A DNA stretch of 64,000 bases from IMG/VR virus record IMGVR_UViG_3300031555_003117, positions 10,140 to 74,139 of that record. One strand, given 5' to 3'. Under the pieces are notes generated by a model. That model was given only the letters and a program-made list of their open reading frames with translations. It had not been told where the DNA came from and did no database searches. Position 1 is the first letter of the stretch. The number at the start of each line of letters is the position of its first letter. This stretch comes from a virus (lineage: Duplodnaviria > Caudoviricetes). The position numbers and the translations under genes are program-made. This document shows, piece by piece, positions 1,184 through 49,528 of the stretch.

Positions 1184-1495
1184 AATCGCAAATTGGATGC
1201 TTGTTATATGTACAACGAACAGAACAGATGAAGTATGCAGGCCGCATCAATTCCTGCGCCTTTTTATCCACTCTGTAATGGTTTTACCTAGCTGCGTGAT
1301 GATCTACCCATGAAATCGCGATAACTCCATTAAACCTCGCAACCATGCAAAAAGCGTCCGGGCATTCATATCATATAACGACTTTAGGAATGAAATCCTT
1401 TACAGGATCAGGCTCCAAGGAACGAAATCTCCTTTAAGGGTGGGATAATGCTTCGCATAATATTATGCTACTTGTTCGTATCCCCGAATCTCAGT

Positions 1496-16174: not shown

Positions 16175-18252
16175 TCAAGTCCAATGGTATTTATATTTTT
16201 CCAGTTTACTCTTTCCCATCATACGGTCAGTTGTCATGGACTGAATAAACTTTTCAAACTTGCCGTCATGCTGCATCTTATACATCAGATCATTATAATC
16301 ATCAACATGGTCAATCGGCATATTGAATTCAAAGTGATTCGTCACGCTACCGATGCTCTCACCGCCAGCCGGTTCGCCCATCCTTGAATACAATTTTTCC
16401 AGAGCAACCGTAGTATCCATTGCCCTGCTCATCACGTGCAGGTTATTCGCCAGCTTAGAGAAATTCGTAGCCTGATCCGGCGTCAGAACTGCTTCACCAC
16501 GTTTCAGCGTGTTCACAGTAATTACGTCATCGCCCTGCATCTGAGCAATTCTTTTCAGTTCGCCTACATAGCCGCCTTCGCTAAAGCCCTGAATCAGCTT
16601 GGAACCATTCTTTGAAACCCAAGCCTTTTCGCCCTTGTAGATAATGGAATGCCAGTTGCCTACGGTTTCTCCGCCGTATTCAAATGTCTGGCCTTCCTTT
16701 ACCGTACCGATGTCCTTGTAGCTCTTGCCTGCACCTGTTCTTACATTCCATCTGCCGTCCAGAATTTCAACCTTCATCGGCTGAGTTTCGGGTTCGTCCG
16801 GTTCTTCCGGAGTAGTCGGAATTGAAGGAGGTGTTATCGGCTCCGTGCTTTCAGGCTCGGTTGGAATGGTAGGCGTTGTGGTGGTCGTATTCGTAATTGT
16901 TTCGCCAGCAGTTGTATTGCTGCGCAGAACCATAGAAGAAACGTTGGCGGAAATACCGTTCAGCACAGCATTCAAGCTCGTAAGCTGAGTAGTGAAATCC
17001 GTGCCATACTTGGTAATAACGCCGCTGATACCACCATCGCCAGACCAGATAGCGGTCATGGTGTTTGAAAGCTTCAAGCCCAGCTTGTCGCTGACCGTTG
17101 TGATCGTATCCTCAATCGTCTTTGAATCGGCGTTGATTGCGTCGATCATGTCAGAAATCAAGGCGTCTGTATCATCAAGACGTTGATTCAGAACGGCTTC
17201 GTAATCTGAGTAGAGGTCGTCAAGAAGCTTTTTCTGGTCTTTGATGTACTGGTCATACTGACTTTCTGCCAGTTCATCTTCGGCTTCTGCAAGCTCAACC
17301 TGCAGTTTTTGAATTCTGGCCTTGTTTTCCTCAGAAGTATCATTGGCGTATGCACTCAATTGCTTCTGAAGCTTCTGTACTTCCGAGGATTGCTTCTTGA
17401 TCTTTTTCTGATAATCATATAGGTCTTTGGCGCTGTCAAGAGATTCTTCATAGGCGTCAATCAGTTCCCGCAGTGAATCCAGTTCCAGATTGATACCTTC
17501 CTCTACCATGTCGATGATCGCTTGCTTTTCTTCCTCTGCCGCAGAAACAGATTCATGCTGCAAACTCAGCAGTTCTTCCCTGCGCTCAATCAGGTCAGTA
17601 TTGTAAGGATCATTGGCAATCTGCTTGTCGATCTTTTCTATCTCATCGGCATACTTTTCTGCCTGTGCAAGATAAGTATTATAATTCTGACCATGCAAGC
17701 CCATTGCAGCCATACCTTCATCAGTTAGCTGTCCGCGCTCAGTGTAGAGGTCTGAGTTTTCCAACAGAGAAATCAGCGTGTTCGCTTCATCTGTAATCTT
17801 GGAAATGCGGTCTTGCACATAGTCGAAGTAAGACCATTCAAGGTTTTGTATCTCTGCGCCATATTCGGCAACGGCAACCTGGCTTTCCTGAATTGCTTCC
17901 TTGGTATCATTGATCTGAATCTGCATTGAATACCAGGCTTCGCTGCCTTCTTCAATTTCACCAGAATTGATACCTTGGCTCATAGCCTGAATCAAATCAG
18001 CCAATCGCTTTTCAGAGATGCCTTGCTTGGATTGTTCAACTGCCTGCAGCTCCTTGTAGAAGTTAATGCTTCCGAGGTAGCCCTGTGCGTCAAGTTGAGC
18101 AATGCCGTTGTTAATGGTATTTGCCCTGTGCTCTTCAAGCGCAAGTTCGTTATCCATCTGGGTAGTGATGGTGTCGAATCGCTCCTGATAAAGAGAAGCA
18201 AGGGATTCATGCAGTTCATCAATCGCATCCTTGCAGTCAAGGGCTTTTTCAT
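16175..18252 (-). CDS. Tape measure protein, exon 4 (C-terminal, includes an SH3b-like domain)
   Basis: Frame is open from 18252 (..YEKALDCKDAI..) into track ORF 16175..18157; WNVRTGAG...WVS segment is SH3b-like. Confidence 0.85.
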
Positions 18253-18354
18253 CGTTATCTTTAGTTGGTTAGCTACACCAACTGGATTGTTAATCCCACA
18301 TAGTTTCCTATGTGACGAGACTATATCTTCTACACTAAAAATAACAGTATGATA

Positions 18355-18382
18355 TTGACATAACAATAAATCTACATATAAT
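18355..18382 (+). promoter_or_regulatory. Sigma70-type promoter for the small peptide
   Basis: TTGACA (18355-60), 16 nt spacer, TATAAT (18377-82). Confidence 0.7.
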
Positions 18383-18548
18383 AAAGATGTGGAAACCACC
18401 GTCAGGTCAGGGTTCTTTTCGTATCGTTTTCTGCCTTGGCGGTTGATGGTAAAAGGGCGGTTGCCTCCTAATTCGACACTCGCGTGAGCTGAAAGGAGGT
18501 GCAATGTGCGGCTCCCGACGAGAATACTTTTTCGGAGGTGAATTGCGC

Positions 18549-18683
18549 ATGAAAGCTATTTCATTTATGGGAGACCTTTGTGGCATCTTAGGATTTATCC
18601 TAACGATTCTATTCCGTGTAATAGACTCTTTTAAATGGAAAGCGAGCCGTCTCGCTACAGACGACTCGCTTAGGGGTATCTGA
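18549..18683 (+). CDS. Small hydrophobic peptide (44 aa; 59 aa if started at 18504), type I toxin-like
   Basis: MKAISFMGDLCGILGFILTILFRVIDSFKWKASRLATDDSLRGI. Strong RBS before both possible starts; one TM helix followed by a basic tail; flanked by convergent promoters. Confidence 0.65.
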   Translation: MKAISFMGDLCGILGFILTILFRVIDSFKWKASRLATDDSLRGI

Positions 18684-18751
18684 GGTCGTAAGCCTCAATG
18701 CCTTTGTATAAGCCTGTTTCTCGTGGCGACCGTCTAGGTTTCCACATCTTT

Positions 18752-18780
18752 ATTATATATAGCATTTTTTATCGTGTCAA
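18752..18780 (-). promoter_or_regulatory. Sigma70-type promoter, convergent (candidate antisense RNA promoter)
   Basis: TTGACA, 17 nt spacer, TATAAT on the minus strand. Confidence 0.7.
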
Positions 18781-19034
18781 GATACATTTTGAGTATATTT
18801 TAGGTAGTCTACCTTTTCGAATCGCCAATCGCTTGCGATCCTACTCCCTTGCGGGATAGTCGTTGAACGTTCCCCTGTTCAGGGCTTCGCTGCTGATTGC
18901 CCAATCCTTACGTTTTTCAAACCATCGCACTTCGGTTTATTTCATCCGTATGCTGTGGTTGTAAGGCTCTAAGGGGTTTCCAGCAATTAAATAGAATACC
19001 CCTATTCGTTACCGAATAGAGGGGCAATTTGTTT

Positions 19035-19636
19035 ACCATTCTGTATAAGAGTCTATAAGTTCAGCGGTTTCCTCGTCATATTCCTTGATGTCGATTGTAC
19101 CGTCATGAACCTTCTTTTTCAGTTCGTCAGACAGGCCAACAGAATTTGCTTCCTGCATATAGCGCTCAAAACCAGCCTCTTGAATTGCCAATTCTTCACG
19201 CATCTTGCGCATCTGTTCTGTTGCCGCTTCAAGTCTCTTGGGAAGCGGCTTAAAAATGCTGGCAAATGCATTTGCAGCCTTTTCAACCAGACGCTGAATG
19301 CGACTGATAGCAACTTCGATCCAGTCTTTGATGGAAGGATCGGATTCTTCATCGGAAGAGCTACTGGAAGAACCTTTGTTTGAGGAACTACTACCTGATG
19401 GTTTAGTCGTTACCTGACCACCGATGATAACCGACCCATTAGCCGTGCCACCATACTCAGTATTGGACGCAAAAGCCGTACCCTCAGCAAGTGCTTTTCC
19501 TCTCGGCGTAATGCCTGAGATTTTACCATTTTTCAGCAATTGCTCTGTCTGCTTATGGTTAAAGATTATGTCGCCCTTCTTGTATTGGAAGAATTCTGCG
19601 CCATAATCGCCGATGGTGAAGTATTTGCCGTTACGT
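19035..19636 (-). CDS. Tape measure protein, exon 3 (602 nt)
   Basis: RNGKYFTIGDYGAEFFQYKKGDIIFNHKQTEQLLKNGKIS...DSYTEW; includes track ORF 19033..19539. Confidence 0.85.
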
Positions 19637-31044: not shown

Positions 31045-32094
31045 TTACAATTCTTCTAGTGAAGTTTGTTTAGTTTTCTTGATGCCTTCTGCACCAAAAT
31101 ATTTTTCAAACTGCTTATCCGCCTCTGTATCAATATATACTTTCAGCATATCCGCAGACTCCCATCCGATCATTTCCTGAATTATATTATCAGGAATGCC
31201 GTATTCATGTAATTTGGTAGTTAGATGATGTCTCATACTGTGCCAGTAGAATGGTCTTCCGAGGATCTGCCCGAAACTTCTTGCCCATGAATCCAACGTT
31301 GTAGTTGGGATTGGTTCATCAAGCCATTGTCCAGCATAGTATTTAGGAAATAACCAATCGGTGTTGATTTTTAGTTCTTTCCTCTGTGCCATCCAGAGAT
31401 CAAGGTAGGGCTTAAATGGTTTGGCAAGTGTATAGATATCTAATAGCTTGCCTCGCGATCCACGCCCTTTAGTTGTTACCTTTTCGGGTGTCTTATATAA
31501 GGCACCCTCACAAATTAGATTATCCTTATCAAAATAACTAACCTTAAATCTGGGAAGTTCCGCCTTGCGCCTTCCATTATTAATTGCAAGTGCAAGCATG
31601 CAAGCTTTCATATATTCCTTGTTTTCAACCAAGATATCCAGCAGTTTTTGCAAATCATCTTCAGTAAACACACTTTTTTCTCGCACTGCAATATCTGCTG
31701 GAGACTCAATTTTACGCACAATTGGTTTATAATCCTCAAATTCATCGTCGAGTATATTTTCTACGTAGTTGCTCAACGATGAAATGGTGGCCTTTACTGT
31801 ACGAATACGCTTAGGAGACCATTTCCATACGTTGATAGCATGACTCTGAAACTTAGCGATCTCGCGTTTAGTTAAGTCTACAAAATGTTTATTCTTATTG
31901 AATTCTAAGTTCCAACACCAAAAAATATGCAAATTAGCCTTATATTGAAATATCGTCCCCTTTGAACGATCAATCGATGAAAGATAGTCAAGGAAGCCTT
32001 CTTCTAAGTCAATGTTATCGGGGTTTACTTGAGCCATCTTTTCATCGGAAGTAATAGTGTTATAAACAGTTTTTCGTCCATCATTTTTACTCAT
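31045..32094 (-). CDS. Tyrosine recombinase (XerC/integrase family)
   Basis: Catalytic-type motifs NNGRRKAEL (R), HSMRH (HxxR), IGW and LKVY. Confidence 0.85.
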   Translation of the reverse strand: MSKNDGRKTVYNTITSDEKMAQVNPDNIDLEEGFLDYLSSIDRSKGTIFQYKANLHIFWCWNLEFNKNKHFVDLTKREIAKFQSHAINVWKWSPKRIRTVKATISSLSNYVENILDDEFEDYKPIVRKIESPADIAVREKSVFTEDDLQKLLDILVENKEYMKACMLALAINNGRRKAELPRFKVSYFDKDNLICEGALYKTPEKVTTKGRGSRGKLLDIYTLAKPFKPYLDLWMAQRKELKINTDWLFPKYYAGQWLDEPIPTTTLDSWARSFGQILGRPFYWHSMRHHLTTKLHEYGIPDNIIQEMIGWESADMLKVYIDTEADKQFEKYFGAEGIKKTKQTSLEEL

Positions 32095-49373: not shown

Positions 49374-49449
<76 letters not shown>

Positions 49450-49452
49450 AAA

Positions 49453-49528
49453 TGGCGCTCGGTACTGGGCTCGAACCAGTGACCCTTCGGTTAACAGCCG
49501 AATACTCTACCAACTGAGCTAACCGAGC
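49453..49528 (-). tRNA. tRNA-Asn(GUU)
   Basis: GCTCGGTTAGCTCAGTTGGTAGAG...CT-GTT-AA...GGTTCGAGCC...CCGAGCGCCA. Confidence 0.93.

What the first reader, a model, noticed from the sequence alone, without database searches (positions are those of the whole stretch)
18355..18780. Type I toxin-antitoxin-like cassette nested in loop L8 of TMP intron 3, with promoters that double as an RNA stem
Seen: two convergent sigma70 promoters whose -10 regions form a perfect 22-bp inverted repeat (ATATAATAAAGATGTGGAAACC, 18376-18397 and 18737-18758). The two -35 hexamers are also mutually complementary in the intron RNA. Between them are a long leader, a 44-aa single-TM peptide on the strand opposite the TMP and a hairpin over its 3' end. 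Known: convergent small hydrophobic ORF plus antisense RNA is the type I TA layout common in Firmicutes prophages. Inference: the repeat folds the insert out of the ribozyme, so an addiction module replaces the homing endonuclease as the intron's maintenance device. The spliced intron would itself be antisense to the toxin mRNA.
Basis: partly seen in the sequence, partly recalled or inferred. Interest (0 to 1): 0.8.

Follow-up and report, generated by a model that had tools for sequence, protein, structure and literature searches.

The report
Toxin-antitoxin-like cassette inside a phage intron
A 426-base cassette that looks like an RNA-controlled toxin-antitoxin pair sits in a loop of a self-splicing intron in a gut phage's tail tape-measure gene. 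It belongs to a large, so far unnamed family of such cassettes in gut Clostridia, and no other copy found lies in an intron.

Summary
At 18355-18780 there are two convergent 12/12 sigma-70 promoters, a perfect 22-bp inverted repeat, a 44-aa hydrophobic ORF on the + strand and a hairpin over its 3' end. All of this lies in the P8 loop of a group I intron (18253-19034, minus strand) of the tape-measure gene.

The cassette is not intron-specific. About 95 homologous cassettes occur in viral contigs, Clostridia genomes and gut metagenomes, none near an intron. They share these features:
- both promoters;
- a structured leader with a sequestered ribosome-binding site;
- a 27-32 aa peptide ending in lysines, under purifying selection;
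- near-cognate start codons (AUA/AUU/AUC/ACG) in about 85% of copies;
- a roughly 110-nt antisense RNA;
- a 5'-3' lock in the sense RNA, which is what the inverted repeat encodes.

No Pfam, NCBIfam, Rfam, GenBank-phage or plasmid match exists.

The twin intron 2 carries an HNH endonuclease in the same P8 position, and a sheep-gut metagenome holds an allele lacking intron 3 exactly.

Best reading: a type I toxin-antitoxin-like moron lodged as intron cargo. Toxicity and transcripts are untested. Its role as an intron maintenance device is unsupported. The window copy is divergent, with its stop codon lost and an AUG start.

The parts
18253..19034 (-). Group I intron 3 of the tape-measure gene (782 nt). 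The 5' exon ends with U at 19035 and the intron ends with G at 18253.
   Evidence: Rfam RF00028 scores 80.1 bits. Homologues read ..EW|YEKA.. uninterrupted. A DNA contig in run X9 joins 18251 to 19034, skipping 782 nt.
18781..18807 (-). 5' strand of P8, directly outside the cassette.
   Evidence: Rfam alignment. Fold of the P8 strands with and without the cassette arms.
18330..18354 (-). 3' strand of P8, followed by the P7' strand AAGATATAGTC.
18355..18382 (+). Promoter of the toxin-sense RNA (TTGACA, 16 nt, TATAAT). Predicted start is G at 18389.
   Evidence: 12 of 12 match. The -35 box is conserved at 5/6 or better in 28 of 33 distinct family members although the spacers are not conserved.
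18376..18397 (.). Left arm of the perfect 22-bp inverted repeat: the -10 box, the 6 nt between it and the start, and the first 9 nt of the RNA.
18389..18548 (+). Structured leader of the toxin-sense RNA. It holds the 5' lock strand, a covarying hairpin, the box GGGCGGTTGCC that pairs with the 3' end, a stem enclosing an upstream SD-like motif with ATG at 18504, and the SD at 18535-18541.
   Evidence: Alignments. Pair counts. Folds.
18549..18683 (+). 44-aa hydrophobic peptide ORF (candidate toxin). Its ATG lies exactly where relatives have AUA, AUU, AUC or ACG. The family stop codon is lost, which gives a 13-aa tail.
   Evidence: pN/pS is 0.16-0.46 in four subfamilies.
18642..18669 (.). Conserved hairpin over the ORF's 3' end. 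On the minus strand it is followed by a U-rich run and is the predicted terminator of the antisense RNA.
   Evidence: terminator-like on the minus strand. (helix 6 is 94% paired, 5 pairs with changes on both sides).
18682..18696 (.). Small covarying hairpin in the overlap region.
   Evidence: in helix 7 all 6 pairs show changes on both sides. Alignment.
18723..18758 (+). 3' end of the toxin-sense RNA: a hairpin plus a T-rich run, and the 3' strand of the 5'-3' lock. The same DNA read on the other strand is the start region and -10 box of the antisense promoter.
   Evidence: panhandle in the minimum-energy folds, z -5.6 and -6.2. (helices 1 and 3 are 98% paired).
18633..18745 (-). Predicted antisense RNA of about 113 nt (candidate antitoxin). 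It is complementary to the last codons and the 3' UTR of the toxin-sense RNA.
   Evidence: Promoter. Alignment and consensus fold. Fold.
18752..18780 (-). Promoter of the antisense RNA (TTGACA, 17 nt, TATAAT).
   Evidence: 12 of 12 match. In the family the -10 box is perfect in 34 of 35, partly by the way the loci were found, and the -35 box is 5/6 or better in 29 of 35.
19637..21216 (-). Twin intron 2. Its core is 86% identical to that of intron 3, and it carries a 372-aa HNH endonuclease ORF (19704-20819) in the same P8 position.
Evidence: PHROG 559 HNH endonuclease, E 2e-55.

Best explanation
The 426-bp insert is one member of a widespread family of type I toxin-antitoxin-like cassettes of gut Clostridia and their prophages. 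The family is absent from Pfam, NCBIfam and Rfam.

How a typical member is built:
- A sigma-70 promoter drives a sense RNA of about 350 nt.
- Its ribosome-binding site is paired with an upstream CUCC-type anti-SD.
- Its 27-32 aa membrane peptide, ending in lysines, usually starts at a near-cognate codon (AUA, AUU, AUC or ACG).
- Its first 10 nt plus a leader box pair with its last 21 nt, giving a closed, poorly translatable form like hok or aapA1 mRNA.
- A stronger convergent promoter, embedded in that same 3' element, makes an antisense RNA of about 110 nt. This RNA is complementary to the 3' end of the sense RNA and would hold the toxin down. By analogy with txpA/RatA, bsrG/SR4 and the C. 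difficile systems, it would do so by duplex formation and RNase III cleavage.

The copy in the window:
- It is lodged in the P8 loop of group I intron 3 of a temperate phage's tape-measure gene. The twin intron 2 carries an HNH homing endonuclease at the same place.
- The cassette's own inverted ends prolong P8, so the ribozyme core can still fold.
- In a lysogen only the cassette's two host-type promoters would be active. It would then act as a prophage-borne TA or moron.
- During late transcription the unspliced or excised intron carries antitoxin-sense RNA over the whole toxin gene.

Shown: the anatomy, the homology, the selection on the peptide, the RNA covariation, the intron position and the intron-less allele.
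Inferred: both transcripts, toxicity, antitoxin action and any benefit to the phage or the intron.
For: - Homologous cassettes: 52 full-length hits (42 distinct) in viral and genome contigs, plus about 40 more in metagenomes.
- Neighbouring genes differ from locus to locus: SMC, NFACT, FtsH, SpoIVB, HtrA, a CHAP lysin.
- The peptide is a real coding region. pN/pS is 0.16-0.46 in four subfamilies.
- The start position carries AUA 18, AUU 9, AUC 5, ACG 4, AUG 2, GUG 1, UUG 1. The window's ATG aligns to exactly that position.
- RNA structure: 90.8% of cells paired against about 41% when partners are slid. 28 pairs show changes on both sides, against 12-17 in the slid controls.
- The lock helices are 98% paired. 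Their one-sided changes are mostly G-U in the sense RNA. Panhandle folds have z -5.6 and -6.2.
- The SD is mostly paired in 14 of 14 members folded.
- Both promoters are conserved while their spacers are not.
- Intron position and ends.
- Twin intron with an endonuclease in P8.
- P8 is prolonged by the arms.
- The record encodes two tyrosine recombinases, so the phage is probably temperate.
- C. difficile type I TAs share the layout: convergent genes, a hydrophobic N-terminus, a lysine-rich C-terminus, in prophages, stabilising them (PMC6563280, PMC7699646).
Against: - No transcript, toxicity or antitoxin activity has been shown for any member.
- No known toxin or antitoxin family matches.
- The window copy is the most divergent member. 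The family's TGA stop is changed to CGA, the reading frame relative to the hairpin differs, and the lysine tail is replaced by KWK plus 13 residues. Its peptide may therefore be inactive.
- The antisense terminator (18642-18669 plus its U-rich run) lies on the tape-measure sense strand inside the intron. It should hinder late transcription unless it is read through.
- The family was collected with a pattern from the arm itself, so conservation of that motif is partly by ascertainment.
Confidence: 0.6

Rival explanations
1. The window copy is an inactive, decaying passenger. A once-functional cassette landed in the P8 loop. Only its inverted ends are now kept, because they close the loop, while the peptide gene drifts.
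For: - The stop codon is lost, the frame has shifted relative to the family, and the lysine tail is gone.
- It is the most divergent member. Outside its own phage, blastn aligns only the conserved blocks to any other copy.
- The arms are homogenised to a perfect 22 bp, unlike 35 of 36 relatives.
Against: - Both promoters are perfect 12/12.
- A canonical ATG sits at the family start position with a good SD.
- The change that removed the stop is compensated on the other arm of the hairpin.
- The leader box, the hairpins and the lock are all intact.
- The sequence has 0-1 differences in contigs from three studies.
Confidence: 0.2
2. The family is a small membrane protein with a cis-antisense regulator, but not an addiction or toxin module. 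It could, for example, be a prophage-encoded exclusion, holin-like or stress peptide whose level is tuned by the antisense RNA.
For: - Weak, sub-threshold resemblance to holins and holin-like toxins only.
- Many copies lie next to housekeeping genes rather than on mobile elements.
- Near-cognate starts could simply set a low level of expression.
Against: The combination of a sequestered SD, a weak start codon, a 5'-3' lock and a stronger convergent antisense promoter is the hallmark of mRNAs whose product must be kept off. It is shared with hok, aapA1, fst and bsrG (established knowledge; PMC6563280 for Clostridia).
Confidence: 0.13
3. One reading: the cassette replaces the homing endonuclease as the device that keeps the intron in the population. 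Cells or phages that lose the intron are killed, and the inverted repeat evolved to fold the insert out of the ribozyme.
For: - The payload position is the same as the endonuclease of the twin intron.
- Intron 3 has no endonuclease gene.
- The arms are uniquely perfect in this copy.
- An intron-less allele exists, so presence or absence is a live polymorphism.
Against: - None of about 95 other cassette loci is in an intron.
- The inverted repeat is a family feature of the sense RNA.
- Post-segregational killing would stabilise the whole prophage, not the intron specifically. It also cannot act in lytic co-infection, where introns are gained or lost.
- The intron-less allele was the more abundant form in the one sample where both were seen: depth 19.4 against 2.5. 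Contig depths are only a rough guide.
Confidence: 0.05
4. There are no genes at all: the region is only a long structural extension of P8, and the promoter-like and ORF-like features arise by chance in AT-rich RNA.
For: The arms do form a long stem in the intron fold.
Against: Homologous cassettes occur outside introns, with conserved promoters, a peptide under selection and their own covarying structure.
Confidence: 0.02

Closest known systems
Type I toxin-antitoxin systems of Clostridioides difficile prophages (CD2517.1-RCd8, CD0956.2-RCd10 and relatives; PMC6563280, PMC5961336, PMC7699646)
   Same: Convergent toxin and antisense genes that overlap at their 3' ends. Toxins of 30-56 aa with a hydrophobic N-terminus and a lysine-rich C-terminus. 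Located in prophages of Clostridia, with a shown role in keeping the prophage.
   Different: No sequence similarity was detectable: there is no blastn match to any GenBank phage record and no family match. Features of this family that I do not know from those systems are near-cognate start codons in most members, a 5'-3' lock whose 3' strand is also the antisense promoter's start region, and a stop codon inside the antisense terminator.
hok/sok of plasmid R1 and aapA1/IsoA1 of Helicobacter pylori (from established knowledge)
   Same: The full-length toxin mRNA is held in an inert form by pairing of its 5' and 3' ends, and the SD is sequestered.
   Different: In those systems the antisense RNA targets the 5' region, and activation needs 3' trimming. 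Here the antisense RNA covers the 3' lock strand itself. These are Gram-negative systems, and there is no homology.
txpA/RatA, bsrG/SR4 of Bacillus subtilis prophage-like elements and par (fst/RNA II) of Enterococcus (from established knowledge)
   Same: Firmicute type I systems with convergent transcription and 3' overlap or a shared bidirectional terminator. The toxin is a single-pass membrane peptide.
   Different: par uses direct repeats, so that the two 5' ends are complementary. Here the repeats are inverted, so the two RNAs share the same 5' sequence. There is no Pfam Fst or Hol_Tox match.
Phage group I introns with homing endonuclease genes in peripheral loops (for example intron 2 of this same gene)
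   Same: Cargo sits in a peripheral loop (P8) that leaves the ribozyme core intact. The intron is an optional element with an intron-less allele.
   Different: The cargo is not an endonuclease but a two-promoter RNA and peptide cassette, with the peptide coded on the opposite strand. I found no paper reporting a toxin-antitoxin cassette inside a group I intron.

Membership tests
Group I intron (Rfam RF00028) | Covariance-model score above the curated cut-off | tested here: met
   80.1 bits against a cut-off of 50, E 1e-18, full model 1-253.
Group I intron (Rfam RF00028) | Removal restores the host reading frame; the 5' exon ends in U and the intron ends in G | tested here: met
   Joining 19035 to 18252 gives ..TEW|YEKALDC.., matching the uninterrupted homologues L173, L175 and L176. 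An intron-less DNA allele skips exactly 782 nt. U at 19035 and G at 18253 were read.
Group I intron (Rfam RF00028) | Self-splicing activity | not testable with these tools
   Needs an in vitro splicing assay or RNA reads across the exon junction. No RNA run holds the stretch.
Type I toxin-antitoxin system | Small (under 60 aa) hydrophobic peptide gene that is really coding | tested here: met
   44 aa with one hydrophobic segment. Family pN/pS is 0.16-0.46.
Type I toxin-antitoxin system | Antisense RNA gene with its own promoter and terminator, complementary to the toxin mRNA | tested here: inconclusive
   At sequence level there is a 12/12 promoter, a conserved -35 box, and a hairpin plus U-run. 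The transcript itself has not been observed.
Type I toxin-antitoxin system | The peptide is toxic when expressed, and the antisense RNA neutralises it | not testable with these tools
   Needs expression tests in a laboratory host.
Type I toxin-antitoxin system | Toxin mRNA folded so that translation is blocked (sequestered SD, long-range pairing) | tested here: met
   Prediction and covariation only.
Known type I toxin or antitoxin families (Pfam Fst_toxin, Hol_Tox and others; Rfam antitoxin RNAs; NCBIfam) | Significant match to the family model | tested here: not met
   No hit at or above any cut-off for the window peptide or for nine relatives. The best was Hol_Tox at E 2.3. No Rfam match at E of 1 or less to any cassette.
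Homing endonuclease gene as intron cargo | Intron-borne ORF with an endonuclease domain | tested here: not met
   Intron 3 has only the 44/59-aa ORF. Intron 2 does have one (PHROG 559, 2e-55).
Miniature inverted-repeat transposable element | Terminal inverted repeats plus target-site duplications, and near-identical copies scattered in one genome | tested here: inconclusive
   Inverted ends are present. No consistent flanking direct repeats in 42 copies. There is only one copy in this viral record. Copy numbers per host genome were not measured.

The most novel reading that the evidence does not exclude
A type I toxin-antitoxin cassette has been domesticated as the payload of a self-splicing intron. 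Its promoter-bearing inverted ends were perfected into the P8 closing stem. In lysogens it would stabilise the prophage, and with it the endonuclease-less intron. In lytic growth the intron RNA itself would serve as a full-length antitoxin. This would be a second, endonuclease-independent way for a group I intron to persist.
Probability: 0.12. Interest if true: 0.85.

Novelty: new variant of a known kind. Interest (0 to 1): 0.66.

Why it matters
There are two points.

First, the work uncovers a large family of type I TA-like cassettes in gut Clostridia and their phages that none of the databases searched names. Gene callers mostly miss them because most toxins start at AUA, AUU, AUC or ACG. 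The family also has an economical design: one 21-nt element is at once the 3' lock of the toxin mRNA, its terminator, and the start region and -10 box of the antitoxin promoter. That gives a testable model for how weak initiation, SD masking and a 5'-3' lock combine to silence a toxin.

Second, it shows a group I intron loop used as a safe harbour for cargo that is not an endonuclease. A sister intron in the same gene still holds its endonuclease, and a natural intron-less allele is available for comparison. That makes the question of what keeps endonuclease-free introns in phage genes experimentally approachable.

Tried and rejected
- Known families: Pfam, NCBIfam and PHROGs on the window peptide and on nine to ten relatives gave nothing at or above cut-off. 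Rfam at a permissive threshold on the cassette and on four other loci gave nothing.
- ESM Atlas: no usable hit for the window peptide. For L018 there was only a 0.79 lead to a Hol-Tox cluster, below the level that means anything.
- Protein databases: the 59-aa ORF finds only itself. A profile of 16 family peptides finds 14 proteins, none with a functional name.
- blastn of family members against GenBank phages and PLSDB plasmids: no match. blastn of the whole intron against phages matched only the intron core.
- Expression: no RNA holder is listed for the stretch.
- An intron 3 allele without the cassette was not seen among the contigs of four runs. This is no evidence that none exists.
- Other intron-borne copies: motif scans and Rfam on 24 loci found none.
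- Target-site duplications around 42 cassettes: none consistent. The 4-nt GATA on both sides of the window copy is too short to count.
- Upstream extension of the peptide from the leader's GUG/AUG: in frame in 16 of 26 and open in 12 of 26, but the distance is not a multiple of three in 10, and it differs between close relatives L095 and L112. I rejected it as a general coding region.
- A nearest donor for the window copy: none. Only the conserved blocks align to other copies.
- One related-loci run failed on a frame error and was repeated.

Full report
**1. The observation**

- The inverted repeat has arms at 18365-18397 and 18737-18769, 33 nt and 88% complementary. Its perfect 22-nt core lies at 18376-18397 and 18737-18758.
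- Two convergent promoters each match the sigma-70 consensus at 12 of 12 positions: 18355-18382 on the + strand and 18780-18752 on the - strand.
- Between them lie a leader of about 160 nt, an SD (GGAGGTG) and a 44-aa ORF at 18549-18683. An in-frame ATG at 18504 gives the 59-aa form found in public gene calls.
- A hairpin at 18642-18669 covers the ORF's 3' end. On the minus strand it scores as terminator-like.
- Rfam places a group I intron over 18297-19044 on the minus strand, at 80.1 bits against a cut-off of 50. The whole insert falls in the loop of the stem after P3', which is P8.

**2. The intron and its ends**

Four viral contigs encode tape-measure proteins about 50% identical to this one. 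They have neither an intron nor a cassette at this site. They read ..(Q/K)EW-YEKA(I/L)DC.. without interruption. In the window the 5' exon stops at ..TEW and the 3' exon resumes at EKALDC.

Independent support comes from DNA. A 6.3-kb contig from a sheep-gut run joins 18251 to 19034 and skips exactly 782 nt, with exons 3-6% diverged. That is a natural intron-less allele. Contigs from three other studies carry the cassette inside the intron with 0-1 differences.

Intron 2 of the same gene is a twin. Its core is 86% identical over 191 nt. The similarity stops at the end of P3' and resumes at the P7' strand, so both introns carry their payload in P8. The payload of intron 2 is a 372-aa ORF that matches PHROG 559, HNH endonuclease, at E 2e-55.

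**3. The cassette is a member of a large family**

An exact search with the repeat core found a second cassette in a non-intron setting. A degenerate pattern (the -10 box, five free bases, then TGTGGAAACC) found many more:
- 47 viral loci, about a dozen with two convergent matches roughly 345 nt apart;
- Clostridia and Oscillospiraceae genomes;
- metagenome contigs, many from gut samples.

A nucleotide profile then recovered 52 full-length cassettes, 42 of them distinct, and about 40 more from metagenomes.

The genes next to them differ from locus to locus: SMC, NFACT, FtsH, SpoIVB, HtrA, an acetyl-CoA hydrolase and a CHAP lysin. None of the other loci has group I core motifs within 1.5 kb, apart from one 9-mer match about 1 kb from the cassette in L185, at a rate expected by chance. 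Rfam finds no intron in the 24 loci tested. The window's phage is therefore the only intron-borne case in this sample.

**4. Anatomy of the family** (alignments)

*Promoters.* Both are conserved while their spacers are not. The toxin-side -35 box is 5/6 or better in 28 of 33 and its -10 box is perfect in 17 of 33. The antisense-side -35 box is 5/6 or better in 29 of 35 and its -10 box is perfect in 34 of 35, although that last figure is partly due to how the loci were found. The antisense promoter is thus the stronger one, as is usual for type I systems.

*The peptide.* It is 27-32 aa, hydrophobic, and ends in two to four lysines. It is under purifying selection, with pN/pS of 0.16-0.46 in four subfamilies.

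*The start codon.* The codon at the right distance from a strong SD is AUA in 18 copies, AUU in 9, AUC in 5, ACG in 4, AUG in 2, and GUG and UUG in one each. Close relatives swap ACG for AUG at the same position (L095 and L112 against L169). The window's ATG aligns to exactly that codon. Near-cognate initiation is therefore the rule in this family. That probably explains why a profile search of 5.8 billion proteins finds only 14 hits, none with a functional name.

*The stop codon and terminator.* The family stop codon lies in the 5' arm of a highly conserved hairpin. The lysine codons just before it give, on the other strand, the U-run that follows the hairpin. The hairpin is therefore the terminator of the antisense RNA.

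*RNA structure.* I tested a hand-drawn structure on 34 distinct sequences.
- 90.8% of cells are paired, against 35-43% when the partners are slid.
- 28 pairs show changes on both sides, against 12-17 in the slid controls.
- No shuffle out of 500 reaches the observed values.

The leader hairpin, the leader stem, the terminator hairpin and a small 3' hairpin all covary.

*The 5'-3' lock.* Two further helices join the first 10 nt and a leader box (AGACGGTTGCC) to the last 21 nt of the sense RNA. They are 98% paired. Their variation is mostly one-sided and gives G-U pairs in the sense RNA, which would be A-C mismatches in the opposite strand. The pairing is therefore selected in the toxin-sense RNA. 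Minimum-energy folds of the window RNA and of L018 both close into this panhandle, with z scores of -5.6 and -6.2.

*The SD.* It is predicted to be mostly paired with an upstream CUCC-like stretch in all 14 members folded.

*What the inverted repeat is.* It is the DNA image of a 5'-3' lock of the toxin mRNA. Its 3' strand, read on the other strand, is the start region and -10 box of the antisense promoter.

**5. How the window copy differs**

It is the most divergent member. Outside its own phage, blastn aligns only the conserved blocks to any other copy. There are three specific differences.
- It has an AUG start.
- The family TGA is changed to CGA, with a compensating change on the other arm of the hairpin. 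The frame relative to the hairpin also differs, so the peptide ends KWK plus 13 further residues instead of a lysine run.
- Its two arms are identical for 13 nt upstream of the GTGG core of the repeat. The figure is 2 or fewer in 35 of 36 relatives and 6 in one. This is what makes the repeat a perfect 22-mer.

In the intron RNA the arms prolong P8 into a nearly continuous stem, at -59.5 kcal/mol against -7.9 for P8 alone. The stem also appears in the fold of the whole intron. The homogenised arms fit selection for a tight closing stem in the intron setting, but this is a single case.

**6. Interpretation**

The architecture matches type I toxin-antitoxin systems. It has a small membrane peptide, several layers of translational silencing, and a stronger convergent antisense RNA that overlaps the 3' end.

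The closest known systems are those of C. difficile prophages. They have convergent genes and toxins with a hydrophobic N-terminus and a lysine-rich C-terminus, and they help keep the prophage (PMC6563280, PMC7699646). There is no detectable sequence relationship to them or to any curated family. I therefore call this a new variant of a known kind.

The viral record encodes two tyrosine recombinases, so a lysogenic state in which only the cassette's host-type promoters fire is plausible.

**7. What is not supported**

I found no evidence that the cassette serves the intron specifically.
- No other copy is in an intron.
- Post-segregational killing would act on the whole prophage, not on the intron.
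- Where both alleles were seen in one sample, the intron-less one had the higher contig depth, which is only a rough guide.

The more economical reading is that the P8 loop is a neutral landing site in a tightly packed late operon. An element that brings its own closing stem is tolerated there.

One open problem remains. The antisense terminator points the same way as the tape-measure gene and should impede late transcription.

No RNA data are available. Both transcripts, toxicity and antitoxin action remain inferences.

Noticed in passing
L018:2262-2314 (+) and L007:4155-4209 (-): A RAGATH-31 RNA (Rfam RF03101, 75 and 79 bits) lies about 110 nt beyond the antisense-promoter end of the cassette in two viral contigs that share this flank.
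   Followed up: no
window 1201-1482 (-): RT-2 RNA (Rfam RF03077, 76.6 bits), a motif usually found beside reverse-transcriptase genes. Not examined further.
   Followed up: no
L023, L046, L063, L064, L069, L075, L100, L105, L121, L137; metagenome loci L253, L273 (and others): The profile matches only the antisense half (terminator hairpin to right promoter) in many loci. These may be orphan antitoxin genes, or cassettes whose toxin half is too diverged to match.
   Followed up: no
Leader of family members (for example L004:~520-568); window 18493-18548: An SD-like GGAGG followed by GUG or AUG sits in the loop of the leader stem. It is in frame with the peptide in 16 of 26 distinct copies (about 9 expected) and open in 12. 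In L018 it is an AUG-UAG start-stop. It may be a standby or decoy ribosome site, but this is unexplained.
   Followed up: partly
L158:2728-3042 (+) and L133:916-1245 (+): In L158 every ACGG/CCGU box (leader hairpin, leader box, terminator hairpin, 3' lock) has changed to AUGG/CCAU together. In L133 the leader box and the terminator arm changed together. This suggests alternative pairings among these boxes, or gene conversion between them.
   Followed up: partly
window 19704-20819 (-): The ORF of intron 2 is an HNH-type homing endonuclease (PHROG 559, 2e-55; Pfam CapR domain, 5e-9). Its stop codon at 19701-19703 abuts the P7' strand of the intron, which begins at 19714.
   Followed up: partly
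Run X9, record 25, laid on window 17900-19374: The contig that lacks intron 3 still begins with 60 nt identical to the shared intron core, followed by 1595 other letters before exon 3. That relative therefore seems to keep an intron-2-like element while lacking intron 3.
   Followed up: no
G000:C1:302-823 (-) and window 31123-31671 (-): Two tyrosine recombinase (Phage_integrase) genes in the 74-kb viral record, one of them at the record's end. The window also holds two tRNA genes at 49377-49528 (-).
   Followed up: no
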